Assembly: GCA_964361725.1 (NCBI GenBank)
Contig: CAYIBV010000001.1
Span: forward strand, 1-38,549
DNA from: an uncultured Methanosarcinales archaeon
Lineage (GTDB): Archaea > Nanobdellota > Nanobdellia > Woesearchaeales > GW2011-AR9
Length of the DNA stretch: 38,549 bases
Direction of reading: 5' to 3'
Part shown: positions 5,341 through 38,436 of the stretch, one piece after another
How positions within the stretch are numbered: position 1 is the first letter of the stretch
Layout of the letters: each line of letters begins with the position of its first letter
Notes under the pieces: model-generated
The model's input: only the letters and a program-made list of their open reading frames with translations
What the model was told of the DNA's origin: nothing
Database searches by the model: none
Program-made: the position numbers and the translations under genes

Positions 5341-5414
5341 CCACGGACTTAATGCTAAAAAATCGAAGATTTTTGGCATGTTAGAAATGTAACAGCATTT
5401 CAAACAGTCCGTGG
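5341..5414. other. compound stem-loop just 3' of the Lrp-type gene
   Basis: CCACGGACT (5341-5349) pairs with AGTCCGTGG (5406-5414). Inner pairings are AATGCT/AGCATT and AAAAATC-GAA-GATTTTT. It has no tRNA T-arm. Confidence 0.35.
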
Positions 5415-7304: not shown

Positions 7305-7469
7305 TCACTTCCCCATCTTCGGCACTACTTTATATGCTACCAGTGCTATCACAGCCAGAATAACCAAAAACACTTTCCAATCTATAATCGTAAACGAAAA
7401 TAAGATTAAATTCAAAACTACCACCCCAATCAAAACAACCCCTGCTAATTTTAACGATTTACTGTTCAT
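7305..7469 (-). CDS. small two-TM membrane protein (54 aa, below the ORF-track cutoff)
   Basis: Translates MNSKSLKLAGVVLIGVVVLNLILFSFTIIDWKVFLVILAVIALVAYKVVPKMGK. The ATG overlaps the last 11 nt of hisS. The stop abuts the convergent 6630-7304 gene. Confidence 0.4.
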   Translation of the reverse strand: MNSKSLKLAGVVLIGVVVLNLILFSFTIIDWKVFLVILAVIALVAYKVVPKMGK

Positions 7470-8784
7470 GAGCTAATTTCTTCACCACATTCTTCACCGT
7501 CAGCAACTGCTCCGTTCCCGTGCTCATATCCCGCAATAATACTTTTTTCTTCTTTAATTCATTTTCTCCCAACATAATCACATAGGGAATCTTCAACGCA
7601 CTGGCATATTCCAAATTCTTGGAAACCCCTTTTCCCAAAGCAAAATCTGTGCAGATTCCCGCTTCCCGCAACTCCTGCGCCACTATAAGACTTTCTTTGA
7701 CTGTATTAATAGGAAGAACTAAGACCATACTAGGTGTCTTTCGCTCCCCTGTCTTTTTCTCTTTCAACGCTTCTGCAATGGGCACTAACCCAAAAGAAAC
7801 CCCCACTGCCGGAACGACTCTTCCCCCGCCCATGAAACTGCCGATCATGTTATCCCATCTTCCCCCTGAACCAAGAGATGAAGTAATCGTTCCTTTTTTC
7901 ATAAATACTTCAAATACCGCTCCGGTATAATACGCCAATCCCCGCGCTAACGACACATCAAACACCGCGGAAGTGACGCCGAATAATTTCAAATATCCAA
8001 ACAACTCTTCTAATTCCGCAATGCCCTGCTTTCCTTCTTCATTTGTCAACTTTTGTTTCAGTTCTGTGAGTGTAATGCCCTCTTTGATCAACGAAAGAAT
8101 ATCTTTAACTTGTTTCGTACTGCACCCTCGTTGCTCTAATTCTTTACTCACACCTTCTTTGCCAATTTTGTCTAATTTATCAATGGCCACAATTGCTTTT
8201 TCTTTATCCTGCACGCCCGCTTGGGCTAAAATGCCATTAAGTACTTTTCGATTATTTACTTTGATAATAACAGGCAATCCTAACTGCACAAATACGCGCT
8301 CAAACAGATTTAATAATTCCGCTTCCGCAAGTAGTGAACTGCTGCCCACCACATCCGCATCACACTGCCAGAATTGCCGCACACGACCTGCTTTAATCGG
8401 CCCATCGCGGAACACGATGCCCATTTCATAGCGCTTGAACGGCATCTTTAAATTAGGATTCATCGCCACGTATCTGGCCAAAGGAACGGTTAAATCAAAT
8501 CGTAATCCTAACTCCCTATCTCCCTGATCTTTTAATTTGAACATTTCTTTCAAGGCATCAGACGCTTCACCCGCCGCAAATTTCGCTGCGAGCGTTTCGT
8601 ACCGTTCTAAAATAGGAGTTTCCAAAGGCGCAAAGCCCGAGAGTTCAAACACCTTGCGGATAGTTTCCACTACTTCATTGGTAATGATCTTCTCTTCCGG
8701 CGGGATATCCCGCACCCCTTTGGCAGTTTGCAGTGGCATACTGTTCTTTGGAAGATTCTCTGCGTTTAAAAATGTTGTTCTCAT
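7459..8784 (-). CDS. hisS: histidyl-tRNA synthetase
   Basis: Class II aaRS / HisRS blocks: KGVRD, LRFDLTVPLARY, FRDGPIKAGRVRQFWQCDADVVG, GGRWDNMIG. The ATG at 8784 forms an ATGA overlap with the upstream gene's stop. The track's extension to 8826 is unlikely. Confidence 0.9.
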   Translation of the reverse strand: MRTTFLNAENLPKNSMPLQTAKGVRDIPPEEKIITNEVVETIRKVFELSGFAPLETPILERYETLAAKFAAGEASDALKEMFKLKDQGDRELGLRFDLTVPLARYVAMNPNLKMPFKRYEMGIVFRDGPIKAGRVRQFWQCDADVVGSSSLLAEAELLNLFERVFVQLGLPVIIKVNNRKVLNGILAQAGVQDKEKAIVAIDKLDKIGKEGVSKELEQRGCSTKQVKDILSLIKEGITLTELKQKLTNEEGKQGIAELEELFGYLKLFGVTSAVFDVSLARGLAYYTGAVFEVFMKKGTITSSLGSGGRWDNMIGSFMGGGRVVPAVGVSFGLVPIAEALKEKKTGERKTPSMVLVLPINTVKESLIVAQELREAGICTDFALGKGVSKNLEYASALKIPYVIMLGENELKKKKVLLRDMSTGTEQLLTVKNVVKKLAHEQ

Positions 8785-10199
8785 TGTTCCCCCTCCACGC
8801 AGTAGTACAGGCGTATTTCGTAACACCTTTTTCCTGTACGCTCTCCCGCAACCTCTACATCAACAAAACTTGGAATGAACTGCTCAAATAAAGTGCTTCG
8901 CCGGAAATCGTCGTTGAGCTCCGGACTCCATAAAGGGGTGACCAGCGGTTTGAAATAGCCTGCTCCCCTCTCATCGTATTCCGTAAAGAATACTTTTTTC
9001 TTCACGACAAGGCCATAATCATCTCCCAAACGAACCTGCTCTTCCCACTGTTGTAAGTCACCCCGTTCAGGATATGTTACGACACTGTTAGGGAGATTCA
9101 CTCCAAAATCTTCTAGTCTCCACTGCATTGCTTGGATAATTTTATTGCGTAGAGGTTGGTTCCGTGTAAGGTAATCATATGATGCTAAAGGATACTTAAT
9201 TCCATTCAATGCCACTTCTCTCCACCCCTCTTCTTCCGTTACATTTATCCCCCGCCCACGCAGTCCATCCACTAAAACTTTATTCTCTAACGCAAAAAAA
9301 CCAAGATTGCGGGAATTTCCCTGATACACCACAATCTCATTTCCCGCTGCTTGTGCTAACGCTTCTACACCAATCTCTGCGTTCCTTCCTAACGCTTCAC
9401 TGGCAAACACAATGTCTGCAACATACCCCACAGCAGGTGAACCTATATCTATGACATAAATTGTATTTCCACTCACCAGAAAATCTATGGAACCTGTAAA
9501 GAACTGTCGTTCCCGTCCCCCCAAAGAGGCAGAGAACAATGCCTCTTCCAAAGATTGTTGGAATTTCTGAGCAATTTCGGAAAGGCCATCACAAAGCACT
9601 TTCGTCGCTCTTTCCATTCGCTCAAAAAGGGCACGTGGCAAAAGAAAAGGTTTATCAGTCACACTGTAAAAGAAAATTGGTGCTTTTCCCTTCGCTCGCT
9701 GTTCTACTGTAGGAGTGAGCGCTTCTGCCTCTGTAAGAAGAAAATTAATCTCATCAATTCTCGTAGAATCTAATGATTGGATTTGCCGTTGCACATCCAT
9801 TAATCTCTGCTGTTTCTGCTCATCGATGCGTCGGAGAACAAACGGCTCTGCAAACGCCGCTTTGGGAAGTAACGTAACTCTTCCATCGTATCCTAAAAGA
9901 CCATCTTCTACAATGTCTACAAGAGATGTAAATCCCGTAAATGCCGTCTGGTCGTTGCTCAGGCACTTGAGAAGCCACCGTTCATCTTCAATACGTGGCG
10001 GTTTTCCGCAGCGAAGCAGGGGGGTAAGATAATTCTCCAAGAAACGCTCTTTATCACTTCGGGAGAAATTCTGTCCTCTATTTTCTCGCCATTGCCGTGT
10101 ACGTTCTAAGATTGGTTCATACGTTCCTCCACTCACTCGAGCAATAGTAGAAAGAATTTTTATTCTATTATCATCTACTCCCGTGAAGACAATCAGCAC
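8781..10199 (-). CDS. hypothetical protein (472 aa), translationally coupled to hisS
   Basis: Long ORF whose only early start is GTG at 10199. The segment GSIDFLVSGNTIYVIDIGSPAVGY is reminiscent of the closing block of ATP-grasp enzymes. This is not enough for a call. Confidence 0.5.
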   Translation of the reverse strand: MLIVFTGVDDNRIKILSTIARVSGGTYEPILERTRQWRENRGQNFSRSDKERFLENYLTPLLRCGKPPRIEDERWLLKCLSNDQTAFTGFTSLVDIVEDGLLGYDGRVTLLPKAAFAEPFVLRRIDEQKQQRLMDVQRQIQSLDSTRIDEINFLLTEAEALTPTVEQRAKGKAPIFFYSVTDKPFLLPRALFERMERATKVLCDGLSEIAQKFQQSLEEALFSASLGGRERQFFTGSIDFLVSGNTIYVIDIGSPAVGYVADIVFASEALGRNAEIGVEALAQAAGNEIVVYQGNSRNLGFFALENKVLVDGLRGRGINVTEEEGWREVALNGIKYPLASYDYLTRNQPLRNKIIQAMQWRLEDFGVNLPNSVVTYPERGDLQQWEEQVRLGDDYGLVVKKKVFFTEYDERGAGYFKPLVTPLWSPELNDDFRRSTLFEQFIPSFVDVEVAGERTGKRCYEIRLYYCVEGEQ

Positions 10200-10278
10200 T
10201 TTGTTGTGCCTGAGCCTCTGGTTCTATTTTAAACTCATTTGTTTTTTCCATAATGACATCACCTTTCTGCTATTTGTA

Positions 10279-10476
10279 TTACCATCTTTCCCCCAGACGA
10301 TCACCACAACTTTCCCTACTCCCCTCACGGATGAGATTAAACATGCTAACCACCCGCTCTGTTTGCCCATCGCAACGTTGTACAGCACAGGGGGGCAACT
10401 GATTACGTTCCTCTATCGGTTTCAGTACTTCATATACATTTTTACACCCAGTACATTGATATTCATAAAGTGGCAT
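10279..10476 (-). CDS. FmdB-family zinc-ribbon protein
   Basis: N-terminus MPLYEYQCTGCKNVYE matches the family signature MPxYEYxCxxC. A second Cys pair is PPCAVQRC. GGAG lies about 10 nt upstream of the ATG. Confidence 0.6.
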   Translation of the reverse strand: MPLYEYQCTGCKNVYEVLKPIEERNQLPPCAVQRCDGQTERVVSMFNLIREGSRESCGDRLGERW

Positions 10477-10518
10477 TTTTCATATTCTCCCCGCTTTAAG
10501 CCCGGCCGGCTTGTTAAG

Positions 10519-10687
10519 GCCTGCGGGAGAGAATTGAACTCTCGTCCTCAGATATCTGCAACAGCAGAGCCCAGAAGCTCCGCTTTTCATCGCCACAGTC
10601 TGAGATGCTGCCACTACGCACGAAGGGACAACGATCCCTTCGGCGTCCCAGAAAAATCGTTGTTTTTCTGTGGACACCACCGCAAGC
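10519..10687 (-). tRNA. tRNA-His(GUG) copy 2 with two inserts (D-arm insert about 10616-10673; canonical 37/38 intron 10554-10592)
   Basis: The minus strand reads G-1, CUUGCGG, UG, GUGU [58 nt] AGUGGCA GCAU C UCAGA CUGUGG [39 nt] A UCUGA GGAC GAGAG UUCAAUU CUCUC CCGCAGG C. The T-arm is consensus. The acceptor is 7 bp with one G-U. G-1 lies opposite C73. The second intron shows a strict bulge-helix-bulge (BHB). The boundaries of the first insert are provisional. Confidence 0.6.
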
Positions 10688-10846
10688 ATGAATAAGACTA
10701 ACAATGCCTATGGTGATGACAATGCACAGAAGTAGAACTACCAATCTTTATTTTTTCAACAAGAATAGACGATAATCTAACAAAACATTTACCGACAATG
10801 AAGACAATCACTTGTTTTGCTTATCATAAACTAATAGAAAAACGTT

Positions 10847-10864
10847 GGAATATATAAACTTTTC
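10847..10864 (-). promoter_or_regulatory. consensus BRE/TATA element without an adjacent start codon
   Basis: The minus strand reads GAAAAGTTTATATATTCC, matching the promoter consensus of this window. It lies about 160 nt upstream of tRNA-His copy 2 and about 40 nt downstream of copy 1. Confidence 0.4.
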
Positions 10865-10899
10865 TAAGATACTCACTAAAAAGAGATAACAAAAAAGAG

Positions 10900-11045
10900 G
10901 GCGGCTGGGGAGACTTTCATGCACCAAGCTGTTTCGTCTTGGTGGGCTTTACGCCCGCCGTTTGGTGCAGCTTTCCAAAAGTGCGAGTTGAACTCCCTCC
11001 AAAGGCTCCACAGGCCTCTATACTAACCGTTATACTACAGCCGCC
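10900..11045 (-). tRNA. tRNA-His(GUG) copy 1 with 73-nt T-loop intron (10914-10986, position 59/60)
   Basis: The minus strand reads G-1 GCGGCUG UA GUAU AACGGUUA GUAU A GAGGC CUGUGGA GCCUU UGGA GGGAG UUCAAC [73 nt] U CUCCC CAGCCGC C. All stems pair. The anticodon is at 11011-11009. G-1 pairs with C73. A BHB forms at the junctions. An oligo-T run at 10891-10896 follows. Confidence 0.8.
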
Positions 11046-11070
11046 ATGAGAGAACCAAATAAATCTCTGC

Positions 11071-11080
11071 TTTAAAAAAC
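11071..11080 (-). promoter_or_regulatory. TATA box for tRNA-His copy 1
   Basis: The minus strand reads AAGTTTTTTAAAG, centred about 30 nt upstream of G-1. It lies between the stop of the 11088-12557 CDS and the tRNA. Confidence 0.45.
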
Positions 11081-11087
11081 TTACTTG

Positions 11088-12557
11088 TCAAATCACCAAC
11101 ACTTTCTGCTTCCTGACAACCCGCACACGCAGAAATTTGGTATATCCTATAAAATCTCCCCCCGCCTGCACGGGAAAAGGCACATCGCTGCGCACAGTGA
11201 TAACTTTCCCTTTCAACGACAAGAGAGGAGACTTCTCCATGCCAAATGCCGCTAACGCCAATGCCCATAACCGTACTGCTTTATTGATAAAAGAGGTATG
11301 CGTATTCACACACGCTAACCCATACACATATCCATCATCAGACTTTACTCTTCCCACCAACGATCGCAGGGTAAATCCATAATACGGCACTTTCCCTAAC
11401 GTAAGATTCACACAATTCTTCCAATAATATTTTTTCCCATCAACGCGGCATTCTAATGCATAGTGTGCTTTTGCCTGCGCTGCCGCTTTTGCTCCCGCCA
11501 TAAAATAATCCACAAATCCCTGCTTCCCCCGCTCTTTTGTCATGCGAATGACTTCCGCATCCACTCCTACACTCAGGAATGTGGTTTCAAACAATTTGTT
11601 ATCCCATTGCACTTCCACCACATCCAGTAGCGTCTCCCGGAACGGAAACCGGGAACGCAGATACTCATACCGCTTTCCTTTGTAAAAATAAGAGTAATAG
11701 GCGTTTCCCGCTCCTAACGGAAAAAAACCCAGACTCTTTGTATGAAATGGCTTATAACTTAATGCACTCTCAAATGATCCATCTCCCCCCGCAATAATAA
11801 TATGTTGCACGTTGTTCAACTGTTTCATCGTTCCTTCATACATATTCTTGTGCTGAGGTAAAAAAATGAGGGGAGCATTCCTTCGTTGGGCAAAAACCCG
11901 CAACAAATGGCGGCGATAGCCGTCATGATATTTCGTTGCCCGTTTGTTGGCAAGAACAACAATCTTTTCCCGTTGTATCTCCTTTCCCGGCAACGTGTTC
12001 TTATTCCTTCCCCGCAGATATTGCAGTGTAAAATACAGCACCGACCACATTCCCCACACCAAAGCCATAATCGTAAATACCACAATAATTCCTTCTGCCA
12101 TAGGCACAAGTAATATCAAAGCATCTTCATAGAGGAAAAAATCACCAACCAATAATCCCATCACAATAGCATACTGGAAATAGATAAACAACTTCTGAGA
12201 GCTCCACTCTTCCAGCAGTACATTCTGCTTAGCGCTGAGTCGTCGTATTATAACAACAACAACATCACGCACGATAAAGATGAGCAGAACGCTGATCCAG
12301 TACACTCCCAGAGCAGCATAGAGAAACAGCATTCCCACTACCAACAGCTTGTCTGCAAACGGATCTAAAAAAGAACCAACAGCCGTCACTTCTTTCAGCC
12401 ATCTCGCGATATATCCATCAAGCACATCGCTCAGAATGGCAAGAATCATCACAAAAATGGCCCATAATGACGCTGATGCCGTCTGCTGCAGCACCAAATA
12501 TACCAGTATCGGCAACACTGCCACACGGAACAATGAAATAAAGTTAGAAACTGTCAT
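11088..12557 (-). CDS. CDP-alcohol phosphatidyltransferase fused to a diacylglycerol/lipid-kinase catalytic domain
   Basis: The N-terminal half has about 6 TM segments and a perfect DG-x2-AR-x8-G-x3-D-x3-D motif (DGYIARWLKEVTAVGSFLDPFAD). The C-terminal half carries the DAGK_cat-type IIIAGGDGSFESAL. Confidence 0.7.
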   Translation of the reverse strand: MTVSNFISLFRVAVLPILVYLVLQQTASASLWAIFVMILAILSDVLDGYIARWLKEVTAVGSFLDPFADKLLVVGMLFLYAALGVYWISVLLIFIVRDVVVVIIRRLSAKQNVLLEEWSSQKLFIYFQYAIVMGLLVGDFFLYEDALILLVPMAEGIIVVFTIMALVWGMWSVLYFTLQYLRGRNKNTLPGKEIQREKIVVLANKRATKYHDGYRRHLLRVFAQRRNAPLIFLPQHKNMYEGTMKQLNNVQHIIIAGGDGSFESALSYKPFHTKSLGFFPLGAGNAYYSYFYKGKRYEYLRSRFPFRETLLDVVEVQWDNKLFETTFLSVGVDAEVIRMTKERGKQGFVDYFMAGAKAAAQAKAHYALECRVDGKKYYWKNCVNLTLGKVPYYGFTLRSLVGRVKSDDGYVYGLACVNTHTSFINKAVRLWALALAAFGMEKSPLLSLKGKVITVRSDVPFPVQAGGDFIGYTKFLRVRVVRKQKVLVI

Positions 12558-12590: not shown

Positions 12591-14216
12591 TCACATTCCA
12601 TCCATTGTAGGATTCATCCTCCTCGCTTCAGAACTTTTCTGCCCCCCTCCCAAAATGACATCATCAATGCGTAAAATCATCTCTGCAACCTCTGTCGCGC
12701 TACGTAACGCAACGGTCTTGATTTTCAAAGGCTCAATCACTCCCTGCTTCCAGGCATCCATCACTCCCCCATTAAAGACATCTACTCCTGCCCATCGCTG
12801 CTGCTGATCATGAGCAGAACGCAATTTGGCAATGATATCAAGGGGATCTAACCCCGCATTTTCCGCTAACGTTCGGGGAATGATTTCCATGGTCTCAGCA
12901 AATGCCTGCACTGCTAACTGTTCCCTTCCATTTAACCTGCTGGCATATGCCCGCAATCCTTTCGCTAATTCCATCTCTACTGCTCCTGCTCCTGCCACCA
13001 CTGTTCCTTCCCTCAGGGCGGCAGCAACATCTCCCAAAGCATCAACGACGGCCCGTTTAATTTCCTCCACCACATGCTCTGTTCCCCCATGAACAAGCAA
13101 TGTGACCGCTTTAGGATTGCGGCACTTCTCCACAAAAATAACTTCTTCTTCACCAATTCTCTCTTCTCGTACCACTCCCGCAAACCCCAAATCACTGGCA
13201 GTTAATTCTTTCCAGTTACTGACAATCTTCCCTCCCGTCGCCAGAGACAATTTCTCTATATCGCTTTTCTTCACTCTGCGCAATGCCAAGATCCCTGCTT
13301 TCGCCAAATAATACTGGGCAATATCATCAATCCCTTTCTGGCAACAGACCACAGTAGCGCCTGCTGATTTTACTCTATCCACCATCTCCCGCAGCGTCAG
13401 TTCTTCTTGTTCTAGAAATAAATTCAATTGCAGAGGGTCGGTAATGTGGATTTTCGCATCAATCTCCGTATTTTTGATTTCTAACGCGCTATCCAATAAT
13501 GCCACTTTGGCATTCTCTACCCGTTGCGGCATGGAGGGATGTACCCGTTCTTTATCCAACACTATTCCCTCAACAAGTTCACTGTGATCGGCATTTCCCC
13601 CCACCACACGTTCTACTTTGATGTGATCAAGGGCAACATTCATCATGCCGTTTTTAGATTCTGCCACACGCTTGACCGCATTGACAATAAGCTGCGCTAA
13701 CTGTTCCCGATTTGCTTCTGCCCCTTTTCCCGTCATGGCGGTAATAGCGATATTGTTCAATACTTCTTCTTCCTCAACAGAAACATGTTCTGCCATAGCC
13801 TGCAGCAATTTCTGCGCTTCTCGTTCCGCTAGGCGATATCCCCGCGCCAAGACTGTGGGATGAATGTTCAACTCTAATAACTCCTCTGCTTTGCGCAGCA
13901 ATTCCCCAGCAATAATCACTGCAGTAGTCGTTCCATCACCTACTGCATCTTCCTGTGTTTTAGCAACCTCCACCACCATTTTCGCTGCAGGATGTTCAAT
14001 CTGCATCTCTCTTAGGATAGTTACCCCATCATTCGTTACCACTACATCTCCCAGAGAATCGACGATCATCTTATCCATGCCTTTTGGGCCCAGAGTAGTA
14101 CGCACAGCCTGCGCTACTGCTTTTGCTGCCGCGATATTATTTTGCTGAGCATCCCTTCCCGTTGTCCGTTTAGTATCTTCCGGTAAAATAAAAATAGGTT
14201 GAACATTATTTGACAT
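12591..14216 (-). CDS. ths: thermosome (group II chaperonin) subunit
   Basis: Blocks [18 protein letters not shown] and [15 protein letters not shown]. The ATG at 14216 has GGAGG 8 nt upstream. The GTG at 14240 in the track is unlikely. Confidence 0.92.
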
Positions 14217-14306
14217 AGTGCTTCCTCCTAACTTTCTCACTAACTACTCACTAACTAATCACTAACCACTCGCTCCTCACCCCAATTCTCCAGAAAATAC
14301 GCTTTT

Positions 14307-20000: not shown

Positions 20001-20022
20001 TAAGATTATGATAAAAATGCGT

Positions 20023-20060
20023 GAAACAAAAAATGAAATCGCAGTTTCATTTTTTGTTTC
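20023..20060. terminator. 16-bp perfect stem-loop
   Basis: GAAACAAAAAATGAAA-TCGCAG-TTTCATTTTTTGTTTC, 23 nt after the stop of the 19092-20000 gene. Confidence 0.45.
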
Positions 20061-20082
20061 TTAACTACACATTTTTAGCACA

Positions 20083-20138
20083 AGAAATACGAAAAATATC
20101 GTATTTCTGTGCAGAAATAAGATTGTTATCTTATTTCT
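20083..20138. other. two adjacent 10-bp stem-loops sharing the AGAAATA arm
   Basis: AGAAATACGA/TCGTATTTCT (20083-20108) and AGAAATAAGA/TCTTATTTCT (20113-20138). Confidence 0.4.
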
Positions 20139-20145
20139 TGCATGC

Positions 20146-38132: not shown

Positions 38133-38436
38133 GTTCAAGAAAGACGTAATCTTTCTGAACCGGAAAACTTTGTTTTCCGTGTTCCAAAAATCAGAGCAGA
38201 GGGATTTTTGTTACCCTATAAGCTCAGCAATGAAGCCTATTTAAAAACTTTTGGTTTTTTTAGTTGAGGATAATAGTTTCTCTTTTCCAAAGAAGAACCA
38301 AACTGAAGTGCCGACTCGACCACCGCTTTTCTTTTTAATAGCCCTACTACATTTCCAAGCTGAATAATATCTGGATGAAGGAAGCACTTCTATAAAAAGT
38401 TAGTGCTTTACAGGGCTAATATGAAGCACAATTTCC

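What the first reader, a model, noticed from the sequence alone, without database searches (positions are those of the whole stretch)
10519..10687. Second, sequence-divergent tRNA-His(GUG) gene interrupted twice; it explains the spurious ORFs at 10480-10744
The minus strand contains a consensus T-arm GAGAG-UUCAAUU-CUCUC (10543-10527) followed by CCGCAGG-C. The complementary CUUGCGG (10686-10680, one G-U) lies 150 nt upstream. It is preceded by a G (-1, opposite C73) and followed by U8-G9-GUGU. The anticodon stem UCAGA (10603-10599)/UCUGA (10552-10548) encloses CUGUGG, then 39 nt, then A. Positions 32-35 CUGU (10598-10595) pair with GCAG (10559-10556). The 3-nt bulges are GGC (10594-10592) and AUA (10555-10553). 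This is exactly the canonical 37/38 BHB, and it yields the same loop CUGUGGA as copy 1. The D-arm pieces GUGU and AGUGGCA-GCAU are separated by about 58 nt (10616-10673, boundary ambiguous by 2 nt). Removing that segment gives a canonical D-loop with A14 and G18G19. However, I could not fold a strict BHB around this insert. An alternative helix CCAC (10673-10670)/GUGG (10614-10611) would instead predict a poorer D-loop, CCACAG. The insert contains two hairpins (AGAAAAA/UUUUUCU and GGGAC/GUCCC).
Basis: partly seen in the sequence, partly recalled or inferred. Interest (0 to 1): 0.7.

Follow-up and report, generated by a model that had tools for sequence, protein, structure and literature searches.

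The report
Twice-interrupted tRNA-His gene, odd insert
This is a real histidine tRNA gene of a tiny (DPANN/Woesearchaeota-type) archaeon that is split by two inserts: one is a textbook archaeal intron, and the other is a conserved 58-base double hairpin that lacks the usual splicing signal and also occurs as a scattered repeat elsewhere in these genomes.

Summary
On the minus strand, 10687-10519 holds three exon pieces. Joined, they give a 72-nt tRNA-His(GUG) with G-1:C73 that ARAGORN calls at its default threshold. An uninterrupted gene in a related Woesearchaeota MAG (L014) matches this product at 70 of 72 positions and scores 54.8 bits on Rfam tRNA. The DNA flanking the two genes is only about 70% identical.

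This gene is the second, conserved tRNA-His paralogue ("type B") of these archaea. It sits in a conserved cluster: PgsA-like gene, tRNA-His A, tRNA-His B, small ORF, HisRS.

The 39-nt anticodon-loop insert (10592-10554) is a strict bulge-helix-bulge (BHB) intron at 37/38.

The 58-nt D-arm insert (10673-10616) is different. It folds end to end into two adjacent hairpins (z = -5.9). It is conserved with compensatory changes at the same site in five other genomes, and it is more conserved than the exons. It shows no BHB, even relaxed, in any register, whereas the other introns of the same genes do. Related copies lie in intergenic DNA, including weak ones in this window.

How this insert is removed is unknown. 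No RNA data were available. I class the finding as a new variant of a known kind, with interest about 0.7.

The parts
10674..10687 (-). Exon 1 of tRNA-His type B: G-1 (10687), acceptor 5' strand C1-G7 (10686-10680), U8 G9, and D-stem 5' strand GUGU (10677-10674).
   Evidence: The same 5' exon is present in L001 and L014.
10616..10673 (-). 58-nt D-arm insert between positions 13 and 14 (register ambiguous by 2 nt). It forms two adjacent hairpins. HP1 is 10673-10647: C-C-(A bulge)-C plus AGAAAAA, loop CAACGA, then UUUUUCU plus GGG. HP2 is 10646-10616: ACGC plus CGAAGGGA, loop UCGUUG, then UCCCUUCG, a bulged U, and GCGU. Paired end to end, it is a 'nicked dumbbell'.
   Evidence: MFE -28.8 kcal/mol, z = -5.9. 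Covariation: HP1 97.8% and HP2 96.7% of cells paired, with 2 and 7 pairs changed on both sides. The same element sits at the same site in L045, L052, L066, L068 and L082. No BHB was found in any register.
10593..10615 (-). Exon 2: D-loop AGUGGCA, D-stem 3' strand GCAU, C26, anticodon stem 5' strand UCAGA, and C32-G37. The anticodon GUG is at 10596-10594.
10554..10592 (-). 39-nt anticodon-loop intron at 37/38 with a strict hBHBh' motif. The central helix is CUGU (10598-10595) paired with GCAG (10559-10556). The bulges are GGC and AUA. The outer helix is 7 bp and the inner helix 4 bp, and the intron has an internal hairpin.
10519..10553 (-). Exon 3: A38, anticodon stem 3' strand UCUGA, variable loop GGAC, T-arm GAGAG-UUCAAUU-CUCUC, acceptor 3' strand CCGCAGG, and C73 (10519).
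10900..11045 (-). Neighbouring tRNA-His type A ('copy 1'), from G-1 at 11045 to C73 at 10900. It is interrupted by a 73-nt T-loop intron (10986-10914) at 59/60. That intron has a relaxed HBh'-type BHB: H is UUCA/UGAA and the outer helix is the 5-bp T-stem.
   Evidence: A homologous intron is present in L014.
10794..10858 (-). Putative promoter and leader of the type B gene: TATA-like TTTATATA (10858-10851) and the conserved leader motif GTGATTGTCTTCATTGTC (10811-10794).
   Evidence: The same motifs with the same spacing occur upstream of type B in L014 and L001, and the leader motif also in L045. Promoter function is inferred, not shown.
10500..10510 (-). Conserved mini-hairpin GCC-GGCCG-GGC between the tRNA 3' end and the downstream Zn-ribbon ORF (10476-10279). 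No T-run lies between them, so co-transcription is likely.
   Evidence: The stem covaries (GUC...GAC in L045, L082 and L066).

Best explanation
The locus is a genuine and most likely functional gene for the second tRNA-His(GUG) isodecoder ('type B') of a Woesearchaeota-type DPANN archaeon. Type B is marked by an invariant C1-G72, U2.G71, U3-A70.

Proposed pathway, with the status of each step:
1. Transcription starts from the gene's own TATA-like promoter and produces a leader of about 140 nt (inferred).
2. RNase P leaves the encoded G-1 opposite C73 (inferred from established tRNA-His biology).
3. The 39-nt anticodon-loop intron forms a strict bulge-helix-bulge. The archaeal splicing endonuclease EndA cuts it and RtcB-type ligase rejoins the exons. 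The motif is shown; the enzymology is inferred.
4. The 58-nt D-arm insert must also be taken out precisely between positions 13 and 14 (or an equivalent register). This follows because an intron-less orthologue has exactly that sequence and the exons are under strong purifying selection.

The D-arm insert carries no BHB. It folds by itself into two stacked hairpins whose first and last nucleotides are base-paired next to each other, a 'nicked dumbbell'. This brings U13 and A14 together.

My working model (inferred, not shown) is RNA-level excision at that nick, followed by ligation. The cutting enzyme would be either a DPANN EndA with broadened specificity or a different nuclease.

The insert is a copy of a dispersed double-hairpin repeat family. 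It probably entered the D-arm as a mobile element and persists as a de facto intron.
For: Gene identity and function:
- The spliced product is called tRNA-His by ARAGORN at default settings.
- The uninterrupted orthologue L014 is identical at 70/72 positions and scores 54.8 bits on Rfam tRNA.
- Exons are 97% identical between the window and L014, against 69-73% for the flanks.
- Across 10 type-B genes the cloverleaf is 99% paired, with 13 pairs changed on both sides and 0/500 shuffles as high.
- The synteny PgsA-like gene, tRNA-His A, tRNA-His B is seen in many of 78 Woesearchaeota/Nanoarchaeota loci, and several hold both types in tandem.

Anticodon intron:
- It has a strict BHB: H 4/4, outer helix 7 bp, inner helix 4 bp.

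D-arm element:
- The same site and the same fold occur in six genomes, with compensatory changes.
- Removing it from L066, L082, L068 and L052 also yields ARAGORN-valid tRNA-His.
- Its fold has z = -5.9.
- Element identity is 84% between the window and L082, against 65% for the exons.

Dispersed family:
- Non-tRNA copies score 76 to 28 bits with the element-only model R2.

Literature:
- DPANN lineages, with a Woesearchaeota genome among those analysed, show increased tRNA gene disruption, EndA variants with an extra L3 loop, and incomplete predicted tRNA sets (PMC5829648).
Against: - No RNA data exist for this organism, so neither junction is shown experimentally.
- The D-arm insert has no central 4-bp helix or 3-nt bulges at any splice register in six genomes (H 1-3/4, flanking helices 0). 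The only known archaeal tRNA splicing route therefore has no obvious handle on it.
- One element-bearing gene (L045) lacks 4 nt of the D-stem 3' strand and may be decaying.
- A type A tRNA-His gene lies 210 nt away, so type B could be dispensable.
- No EndA or RtcB gene lies in the window.
Confidence: 0.8

Rival explanations
1. Pseudogene: a once-functional type B tRNA-His gene was inactivated when a dispersed double-hairpin repeat (MITE/REP-like) inserted into its D-arm. Type A supplies all tRNA-His.
For: - The insert belongs to a dispersed family that occurs in intergenic DNA in both orientations.
- There is no BHB to remove it.
- The L045 copy has a 4-nt deletion in the D-stem.
- Type A is adjacent.
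Against: - Exons are 97% identical to the uninterrupted orthologue, against about 70% for the flanks.
- All four stems, G-1, C73, the GUG anticodon and the T-loop are intact.
- The anticodon intron keeps a perfect BHB.
- The same insertion is maintained in five other genomes whose exons have diverged to 53-75% identity (measured among four of the six hosts). Four of those five are still ARAGORN-valid after removal.
Confidence: 0.1
2. Retained expansion: the 58-nt dumbbell is not removed, and the mature RNA is a tRNA-His (or tRNA-like RNA) with an extra two-hairpin domain protruding between nucleotides 13 and 14.
For: - The element is paired end to end, so its two ends sit side by side. It could in principle be accommodated without breaking the D-stem.
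- There is no recognisable splicing motif.
- Its sequence is more conserved than the exons, as expected for a functional module.
Against: - No tRNA with an insertion in the 13/14 core is known (my own knowledge).
- A14 and the 13-22 pair belong to the conserved tertiary core.
- Orthologues without the element are otherwise nearly identical (L014), so the element is not needed for the function of the tRNA.
Confidence: 0.07
3. Chance resemblance or protein-coding sequence: the tRNA-like pieces are fortuitous and one of the overlapping ORFs is real.
For: Mechanical ORFs of 74, 76 and 170 aa cover the region.
Against: - The ORFs have no Pfam hits.
- The orthologue lacks 58 nt (not a multiple of 3) and 39 nt exactly at the predicted junctions.
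- Covariation supports RNA helices, not codons.
Confidence: 0.01

Closest known systems
Multiple-intron tRNA genes of Crenarchaeota/Thermoproteales, and Methanopyrus kandleri pre-tRNA-Glu(UUC), which has a canonical 37/38 intron plus a D-loop HBh' intron (PMC5829648; review PMC4090602)
   Same: It is an archaeal tRNA gene with one canonical BHB intron at 37/38 and a second intervening sequence in the D-arm. Standard tRNA finders miss it.
   Different: In those cases every intron, including the D-loop one, carries a strict or relaxed BHB (HBh', hBH or BHL). Here the D-arm insert has none in six genomes. The host is a DPANN/Woesearchaeota archaeon.
Transposed tRNA introns of Thermoproteales (Fujishima et al. 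2010, as summarised in PMC4090602)
   Same: The intervening sequences are more similar to each other than their host tRNAs are, which implies spread of the intron sequence.
   Different: Those introns move among tRNA genes and carry the BHB with them. This element also occurs outside tRNA genes, in intergenic DNA and in both orientations, and it carries no BHB.
Bacterial dispersed hairpin repeats (REP/BIME, Correia-type MITEs); comparison from my own knowledge
   Same: They are short (about 50-60 nt), highly structured palindromic units. They are scattered in intergenic regions, often at gene ends and sometimes in inverted pairs (window 20078-20139; L012 2620-2668 and 2709-2761).
   Different: This family is in a different domain of life. 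I found no terminal inverted repeats and no target-site duplication beyond 1-2 ambiguous nucleotides. One insertion site lies inside a conserved, selected tRNA gene.
Non-canonical D-arm and T-arm tRNA introns of algal nucleomorphs (Kawach 2005, cited in PMC4090602)
   Same: These are insertions in the D or T arms that are removed although the recognition mechanism is unknown.
   Different: They are eukaryotic, very short (3-24 nt) and unstructured.

Membership tests
tRNA-His (archaeal/bacterial type) | Cloverleaf with a 7-bp acceptor stem, D, anticodon and T arms, and a canonical T-loop, accepted by a tRNA detector or covariance model. | tested here: met
   The spliced 72-mer is called tRNA-His by ARAGORN at default settings. 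An orthologue differing at 2 of 72 positions scores 54.8 bits on Rfam RF00005, gathering score 29. Cloverleaf covariation is 99% paired.
tRNA-His (archaeal/bacterial type) | GUG anticodon, genome-encoded G-1 and discriminator C73. | tested here: met
   GUG is at 10596-10594, G-1 at 10687 and C73 at 10519. G-1 is present in all six element-bearing genes.
Archaeal BHB intron (anticodon insert 10592-10554) | Two 3-nt bulges on opposite strands separated by a 4-bp helix and flanked by helices of at least 2 bp, with cleavage after the 2nd bulge nucleotide. | tested here: met
   H is CUGU/GCAG at 4/4, the bulges are GGC and AUA, the outer helix is 7 bp and the inner helix 4 bp, at position 37/38.
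Archaeal BHB intron, strict or relaxed (HBh', hBH, BHL), applied to the D-arm insert 10673-10616 | A central 4-bp helix between the 4 exon nucleotides preceding the 5' bulge and the 4 intron nucleotides preceding the 3' bulge. | tested here: not met
   The best value in any register that gives the observed product is H 2/4 in the window and 1-3/4 in L045, L052, L066, L068 and L082, with flanking helices of 0 bp. The anticodon and T-loop introns of the same gene family mostly score 4/4 with 5-7-bp outer helices.
Archaeal BHB intron, strict or relaxed (HBh', hBH, BHL), applied to the D-arm insert 10673-10616 | Precise removal restores a canonical tRNA. | tested here: met
   Deletion gives a D-arm GUGU-AGUGGCA-GCAU that matches L014 except U13/C13. 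The same holds in four other genomes.
Archaeal BHB intron, strict or relaxed (HBh', hBH, BHL), applied to the D-arm insert 10673-10616 | Cleavage by EndA and ligation by RtcB, with a spliced junction present in RNA. | not testable with these tools
   No transcriptome data were available, and no EndA or RtcB gene lies in the window.
Dispersed mobile repeat (MITE/REP-like) | Multiple related copies at unrelated genomic sites, in either orientation. | tested here: met
   The element-only model R2 finds L059 (76 bits), L029 (49), L032 (43 and 33), L004 (42), L012 (32 and 28), L033, L061, and window 20078-20139 (28), 38135-38182 (20) and 5352-5405 (18).
Dispersed mobile repeat (MITE/REP-like) | Terminal inverted repeats, target-site duplication, or an associated transposase. 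| tested here: inconclusive
   There is no duplication beyond 1-2 ambiguous nucleotides at the tRNA site and no clear target consensus in the flanks. No transposase was identified. There are no matches in viral contigs.
Known RNA families (Rfam 15) | A match at gathering score. | tested here: not met
   No family covers the element in the window or in 12 loci.

The most novel reading that the evidence does not exclude
The 58-nt D-arm insert would represent a new class of archaeal tRNA intervening sequence. It is a self-contained, BHB-less 'nicked dumbbell' derived from a mobile double-hairpin repeat that has colonised the 13/14 site of the second tRNA-His gene in Woesearchaeota. It would be excised (probably as a closed dumbbell circle) by a recognition mode other than the bulge-helix-bulge rule that is thought to govern all archaeal tRNA splicing.
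Probability: 0.35. Interest if true: 0.85.

Novelty: new variant of a known kind. Interest (0 to 1): 0.7.

Why it matters
1. Annotation. Both tRNA-His genes of this window are invisible to standard tRNA finders. This fits published remarks that DPANN genomes appear to lack tRNAs because disrupted genes go undetected (PMC5829648). The exon and insert models given here could recover them.

2. Splicing rule. All archaeal tRNA introns described so far are defined by a strict or relaxed BHB. A conserved, evidently selected tRNA gene whose D-arm insert has no BHB makes one question directly testable: is there a broader EndA specificity, or a second excision route?

3. Intron origin. The same element also occurs as a dispersed intergenic repeat. 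This links tRNA introns to mobile hairpin elements and bears on the long-standing question of where archaeal tRNA introns come from.

4. Biology of the paralogue. A conserved second tRNA-His with an invariant C1-G72/U2.G71/U3-A70 stem top, lying next to HisRS, is itself unexplained.

Tried and rejected
- First genome scan. A genome-contig scan with the single neighbour protein found nothing. The window protein itself is not in the gene-position index.
- Strict BHB scan over whole pre-tRNAs. For the D-arm insert it gives only internal or inconsistent motifs. One example is a strict BHB inside the element in an alternative fold (window cuts at element positions 23 and 39). L082 has it in a different register (22 and 40) and the scans found no equivalent motif in L045 or L052, so I rejected it as chance.
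It is not conserved: L052 has AACGG and L045 has AAAGA at the partner site.
- A closing helix formed by exon GUGU with the element tail GCGU. It is weak (mostly G-U), broken in L066 and L052, and competes with the covarying ACGC/GCGU base of HP2.
- A kissing interaction between the two hairpin loops (CAACGA/UCGUUG). The loops are complementary in the window, L045, L082 and L052 (AAA/UUU), and in L029 (CGACGA/UUGUCG) with one compensatory change. They are not complementary in L066 or L068, and only 66.7% of cells are paired. I treat this as suggestive only.
- The match of the element model to the opposite strand. It follows largely from the hairpin nature plus complementary loops, so it is not evidence of a DNA-level palindrome by itself.
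- A C/D-box sRNA in the anticodon intron. The Rfam sR49 hit is 15.7 bits against a gathering score of 50, and I rejected it.
- L033 7251-7298. This weak element-like hit lies inside the HisRS reading frame and is probably spurious.
- Viral contigs hold no exact copy of HP1 plus the junction.
- The 472-aa neighbour ORF has no Pfam, NCBIfam or PDB relative.
- Literature searches in the held library found no description of this element or of paired tRNA-His genes in Woesearchaeota.

Full report
**1. What is in the sequence**

Neither ARAGORN (with or without its intron option) nor Rfam at gathering threshold reports any tRNA in the 38.5-kb window. A permissive Rfam scan gives only partial tRNA hits: 15.7 bits at 10527-10619, and 24.7 bits at 10983-11037 for the neighbouring copy.

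Joining 10687-10674, 10615-10593 and 10553-10519 gives a 72-mer. ARAGORN calls it tRNA-His(gtg) at default settings, with G-1 paired to C73. Removing only the 58-nt block gives tRNA-His with a 39-nt intron at the anticodon loop.

**2. Host organism and context**

The window encodes several informative proteins:
- a thermosome subunit (12591-14240)
- a PgsA/lipid-kinase fusion (11088-12557)
- HisRS (7459-8826)
- an FmdB-type zinc-ribbon protein (10279-10476)
- Cbf5 and ribosomal protein S3Ae

Homologues of the PgsA-like protein that carry a name are from Woesearchaeota or Nanoarchaeota MAGs. The closest are in groundwater metagenomes. The host is therefore a DPANN archaeon with 42.7% G+C.

**3. 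Comparative proof of the gene model**

A profile of the PgsA-like protein retrieved 78 loci from species-representative genomes. ARAGORN on these loci shows that a tRNA-His(GTG) gene downstream of this protein gene is conserved synteny. It also shows two paralogous types, and both occur in tandem in several genomes, for example L020, L033, L035 and L040:
- Type A has the acceptor stem GCGGCYG..., like the window's copy at 11045-10900.
- Type B has CUUGCSG...CSGCAGG-CC, like the finding.

The decisive observation is L014 6514-6585 (Woesearchaeota UBA10194). It is an uninterrupted type B gene identical to the window's doubly spliced product at 70 of 72 positions. The differences are U13/C13 and one variable-loop base. 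It scores 54.8 bits on Rfam tRNA, whose gathering score is 29.

Upstream and downstream flanks of the two genes are only 69% and 73% identical, so the exons are under purifying selection.

Ten type-B sequences, including the window's spliced form, give 99% paired cells on the cloverleaf. Thirteen pairs are changed on both sides, and 0 of 500 shuffles reach this. C1-G72, U2.G71 and U3-A70 are invariant.

The contig of the closest relative (L001; neighbour protein 84% identical) ends 13 nt after the same 5' exon. It diverges from the window exactly at the predicted exon 1/insert boundary.

The ORFs that overlap the locus have no Pfam match and cannot survive the 58-nt presence/absence difference.

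**4. The anticodon-loop insert**

An explicit scan for the BHB geometry looked, on each strand, for outer helix, 4-bp helix, 3-nt bulge cut after its 2nd base, then a further flanking helix. It finds one solution at the expected place:
- H is CUGU/GCAG, 4/4.
- The bulges are GGC and AUA.
- The outer helix is 7 bp (anticodon stem plus extension).
- The inner helix is 4 bp.
- The intron is 39 nt, at position 37/38.

This is a canonical archaeal intron.

**5. The D-arm insert**

The 58 nt fold on their own into ((.((((((((......))))))))))(((((((((((((....))))))))).)))). The energy is -28.8 kcal/mol, z = -5.9, and 0 of 200 shuffles fold as well.
- HP1 is C-C-(A)-C plus AGAAAAA, paired with UUUUUCU plus GGG.
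- HP2 is ACGC plus CGAAGGGA, paired with UCCCUUCG-(U)-GCGU.
- The first nucleotide pairs with G27 and the last with A28, so the two ends lie side by side like a nick in a dumbbell.

The same element sits at the same D-arm site of second-type tRNA-His genes in five other genomes:
- L045
- L052, which also has anticodon and T-arm inserts
- L082, recovered by a metagenome pattern scan
- L066 and L068, found with covariance model R1

After removal of the inserts, L066, L082, L068 and L052 are all ARAGORN-valid tRNA-His. L045 lacks 4 nt of the D-stem 3' strand and may be decaying.

Covariation supports both hairpins. HP1 is 97.8% paired and HP2 96.7% paired, with 2 and 7 pairs changed on both sides. 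For the whole structure, 0 of 500 shuffles reach the observed pairing.

**6. No BHB in the D-arm insert**

For every splice register that yields the observed mature sequence, I scored three things: the central helix between exon positions a-5..a-2 and intron positions b-6..b-3, and the two flanking helices.
- The D-arm element scores H 1-3 of 4, with flanking helices of 0 bp, in all six genomes.
- Anticodon introns of Woesearchaeal tRNA-His genes mostly score 4/4 with 5-7-bp outer helices.
- The window's copy-1 T-loop intron scores 4/4 (UUCA/UGAA) with the 5-bp T-stem, a relaxed HBh' motif at the known 59/60 position.

The method therefore detects BHBs where they exist, and the D-arm insert is the exception. 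Because the central helix is missing, the published relaxed forms (HBh', hBH, BHL; PMC5829648) are not met either.

**7. The insert is a member of a dispersed family**

The element is more conserved than its hosts. Window versus L082 is 84% for the element and 65% for the exons, and L045 versus L082 is 88% for the element. The 28-mer AGAAAAACAACGATTTTTCTGGGACGCC is identical in the window, L066 and the non-tRNA copy in L059.

An element-only model (R2) finds further copies outside tRNA genes:
- L059 1110-1167 (76 bits)
- L029 2819-2876 (49 bits)
- L032, two copies (43 and 33 bits)
- L004 4596-4649 (42 bits), whose HP2 is nearly identical to the window's
- L012, two adjacent copies in opposite orientation
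- L033 and L061
- weaker copies in this window at 20078-20139 (28 bits, between convergent genes), 38135-38182 (20 bits) and 5352-5405 (18 bits, closed by its own 9-bp stem)

Intergenic copies occur in either orientation, whereas all six tRNA copies are in the sense orientation. Presence in type B genes is patchy: absent from L014 and from many others. No Rfam family matches the element, and there is no exact copy in viral contigs. I found no target-site duplication beyond the 1-2 ambiguous bases and no clear target motif.

**8. Mechanism**

Shown:
- the gene model
- the selection on the exons
- the strict BHB at 37/38
- the conserved dumbbell fold
- the absence of a BHB in the D-arm insert
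- the dispersed family

Inferred:
- transcription from the conserved TATA-like box (10858-10851), with a leader of about 140 nt containing GTGATTGTCTTCATTGTC
- retention of the encoded G-1 by RNase P
- EndA and RtcB removal of the 39-nt intron
- precise RNA-level removal of the dumbbell at the point where its paired ends meet

The last step could be done by a DPANN EndA with widened specificity. The literature reports L3-loop EndAs and increased tRNA disruption in DPANN (PMC5829648). It could also be done by another nuclease.

The alternatives are a pseudogene or a retained expansion. I judge both less likely because of the exon conservation and the intact BHB intron in the same gene.

**9. 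Comparison with what is known**

Multi-intron archaeal tRNA genes and D-arm or D-loop introns are established (PMC4090602, PMC5829648), so the gene as such is a new member of a known kind.

Three features are not matched by anything I could find in the held literature or in Rfam:
- the intervening sequence has no BHB
- it is structurally self-contained
- it is sequence-conserved and shared with intergenic repeat copies

Overall I rate the finding a new variant of a known kind. There is a substantial chance (about one in three) that the D-arm element represents a genuinely different excision mode.

**10. Limits**

- There are no transcript data.
- The spliced window sequence could not itself be scored with the Rfam model.
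- Only about 0.5 Mb of related sequence was searched for the repeat family.
- The weak window copies (18-28 bits) may partly reflect generic A/U-rich hairpin pairs.

Noticed in passing
window 10900-11045 (-), intron 10914-10986: The first tRNA-His gene (type A) is also invisible to ARAGORN and Rfam. A 73-nt intron splits its T-loop at 59/60, with a relaxed HBh' motif. L014 has a homologous intron that is 87% identical while the exons are only 75% identical. That intron too seems to be under sequence constraint.
   Followed up: partly
window 7459-12557 (-); L033 4470-7470; many of L003-L080: There is a conserved cluster: PgsA/lipid-kinase fusion, tRNA-His A, tRNA-His B (or a GCCGCAG-type variant), a small ORF, then HisRS. 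Type B always has C1-G72, U2.G71 and U3-A70. Why these archaea keep two tRNA-His(GUG) isodecoders next to hisS is unexplained.
   Followed up: partly
window 20078-20139, 38135-38182, 5352-5405: These are weaker copies (28, 20 and 18 bits) of the same double-hairpin architecture, lying in intergenic DNA. The copy at 5352-5405 is enclosed by its own 9-bp stem (GCCACGGAC/GUCCGUGG). A perfect 16-bp hairpin lies next to the first copy at about 20022-20060.
   Followed up: partly
window 10794-10858 (-): A TATA-like TTTATATA and the motif GTGATTGTCTTCATTGTC lie 39 nt apart, about 165 and 110 nt upstream of the type B tRNA. They are conserved with the same spacing in L014 and L001, and the leader motif also in L045. 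This implies an unusually long conserved 5' leader.
   Followed up: no
window 10489-10510 (-): A mini-hairpin GCC-GGCCG-GGC followed by UAAAGCGGGGAG (Shine-Dalgarno-like) lies between the tRNA 3' end and the zinc-ribbon ORF. The stem covaries in L045, L082 and L066. No T-run separates the tRNA from the ORF, which suggests a tRNA-mRNA co-transcript.
   Followed up: no
window 8781-10199 (-): A 472-aa ORF lies between the zinc-ribbon gene and HisRS and overlaps the HisRS start by 46 nt. It has no Pfam, NCBIfam or PDB sequence relative.
   Followed up: partly
L052 4687-4880: This tRNA-His gene has three interruptions: the D-arm double hairpin, a 15-nt anticodon-loop intron, and an insert of about 38 nt at the T-loop/T-stem boundary.
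   Followed up: partly
L045 4120-4260 and 4495-4620: In L045, type A has a D-loop insert plus an anticodon intron. Type B carries the double hairpin but lacks 4 nt of the D-stem 3' strand, which could mean a pseudogene or an assembly error.
   Followed up: no
L001 2470-2610; L004 4551-4700: Just downstream of the PgsA-like gene, where type A normally sits, these two loci instead hold long nested palindromes and hairpin RNAs. One example is the 13-bp stem GUAUGUGCAUAGC/GCUAUGCACAUAC followed by UCUUUUUUU. Their nature is unknown.
   Followed up: no
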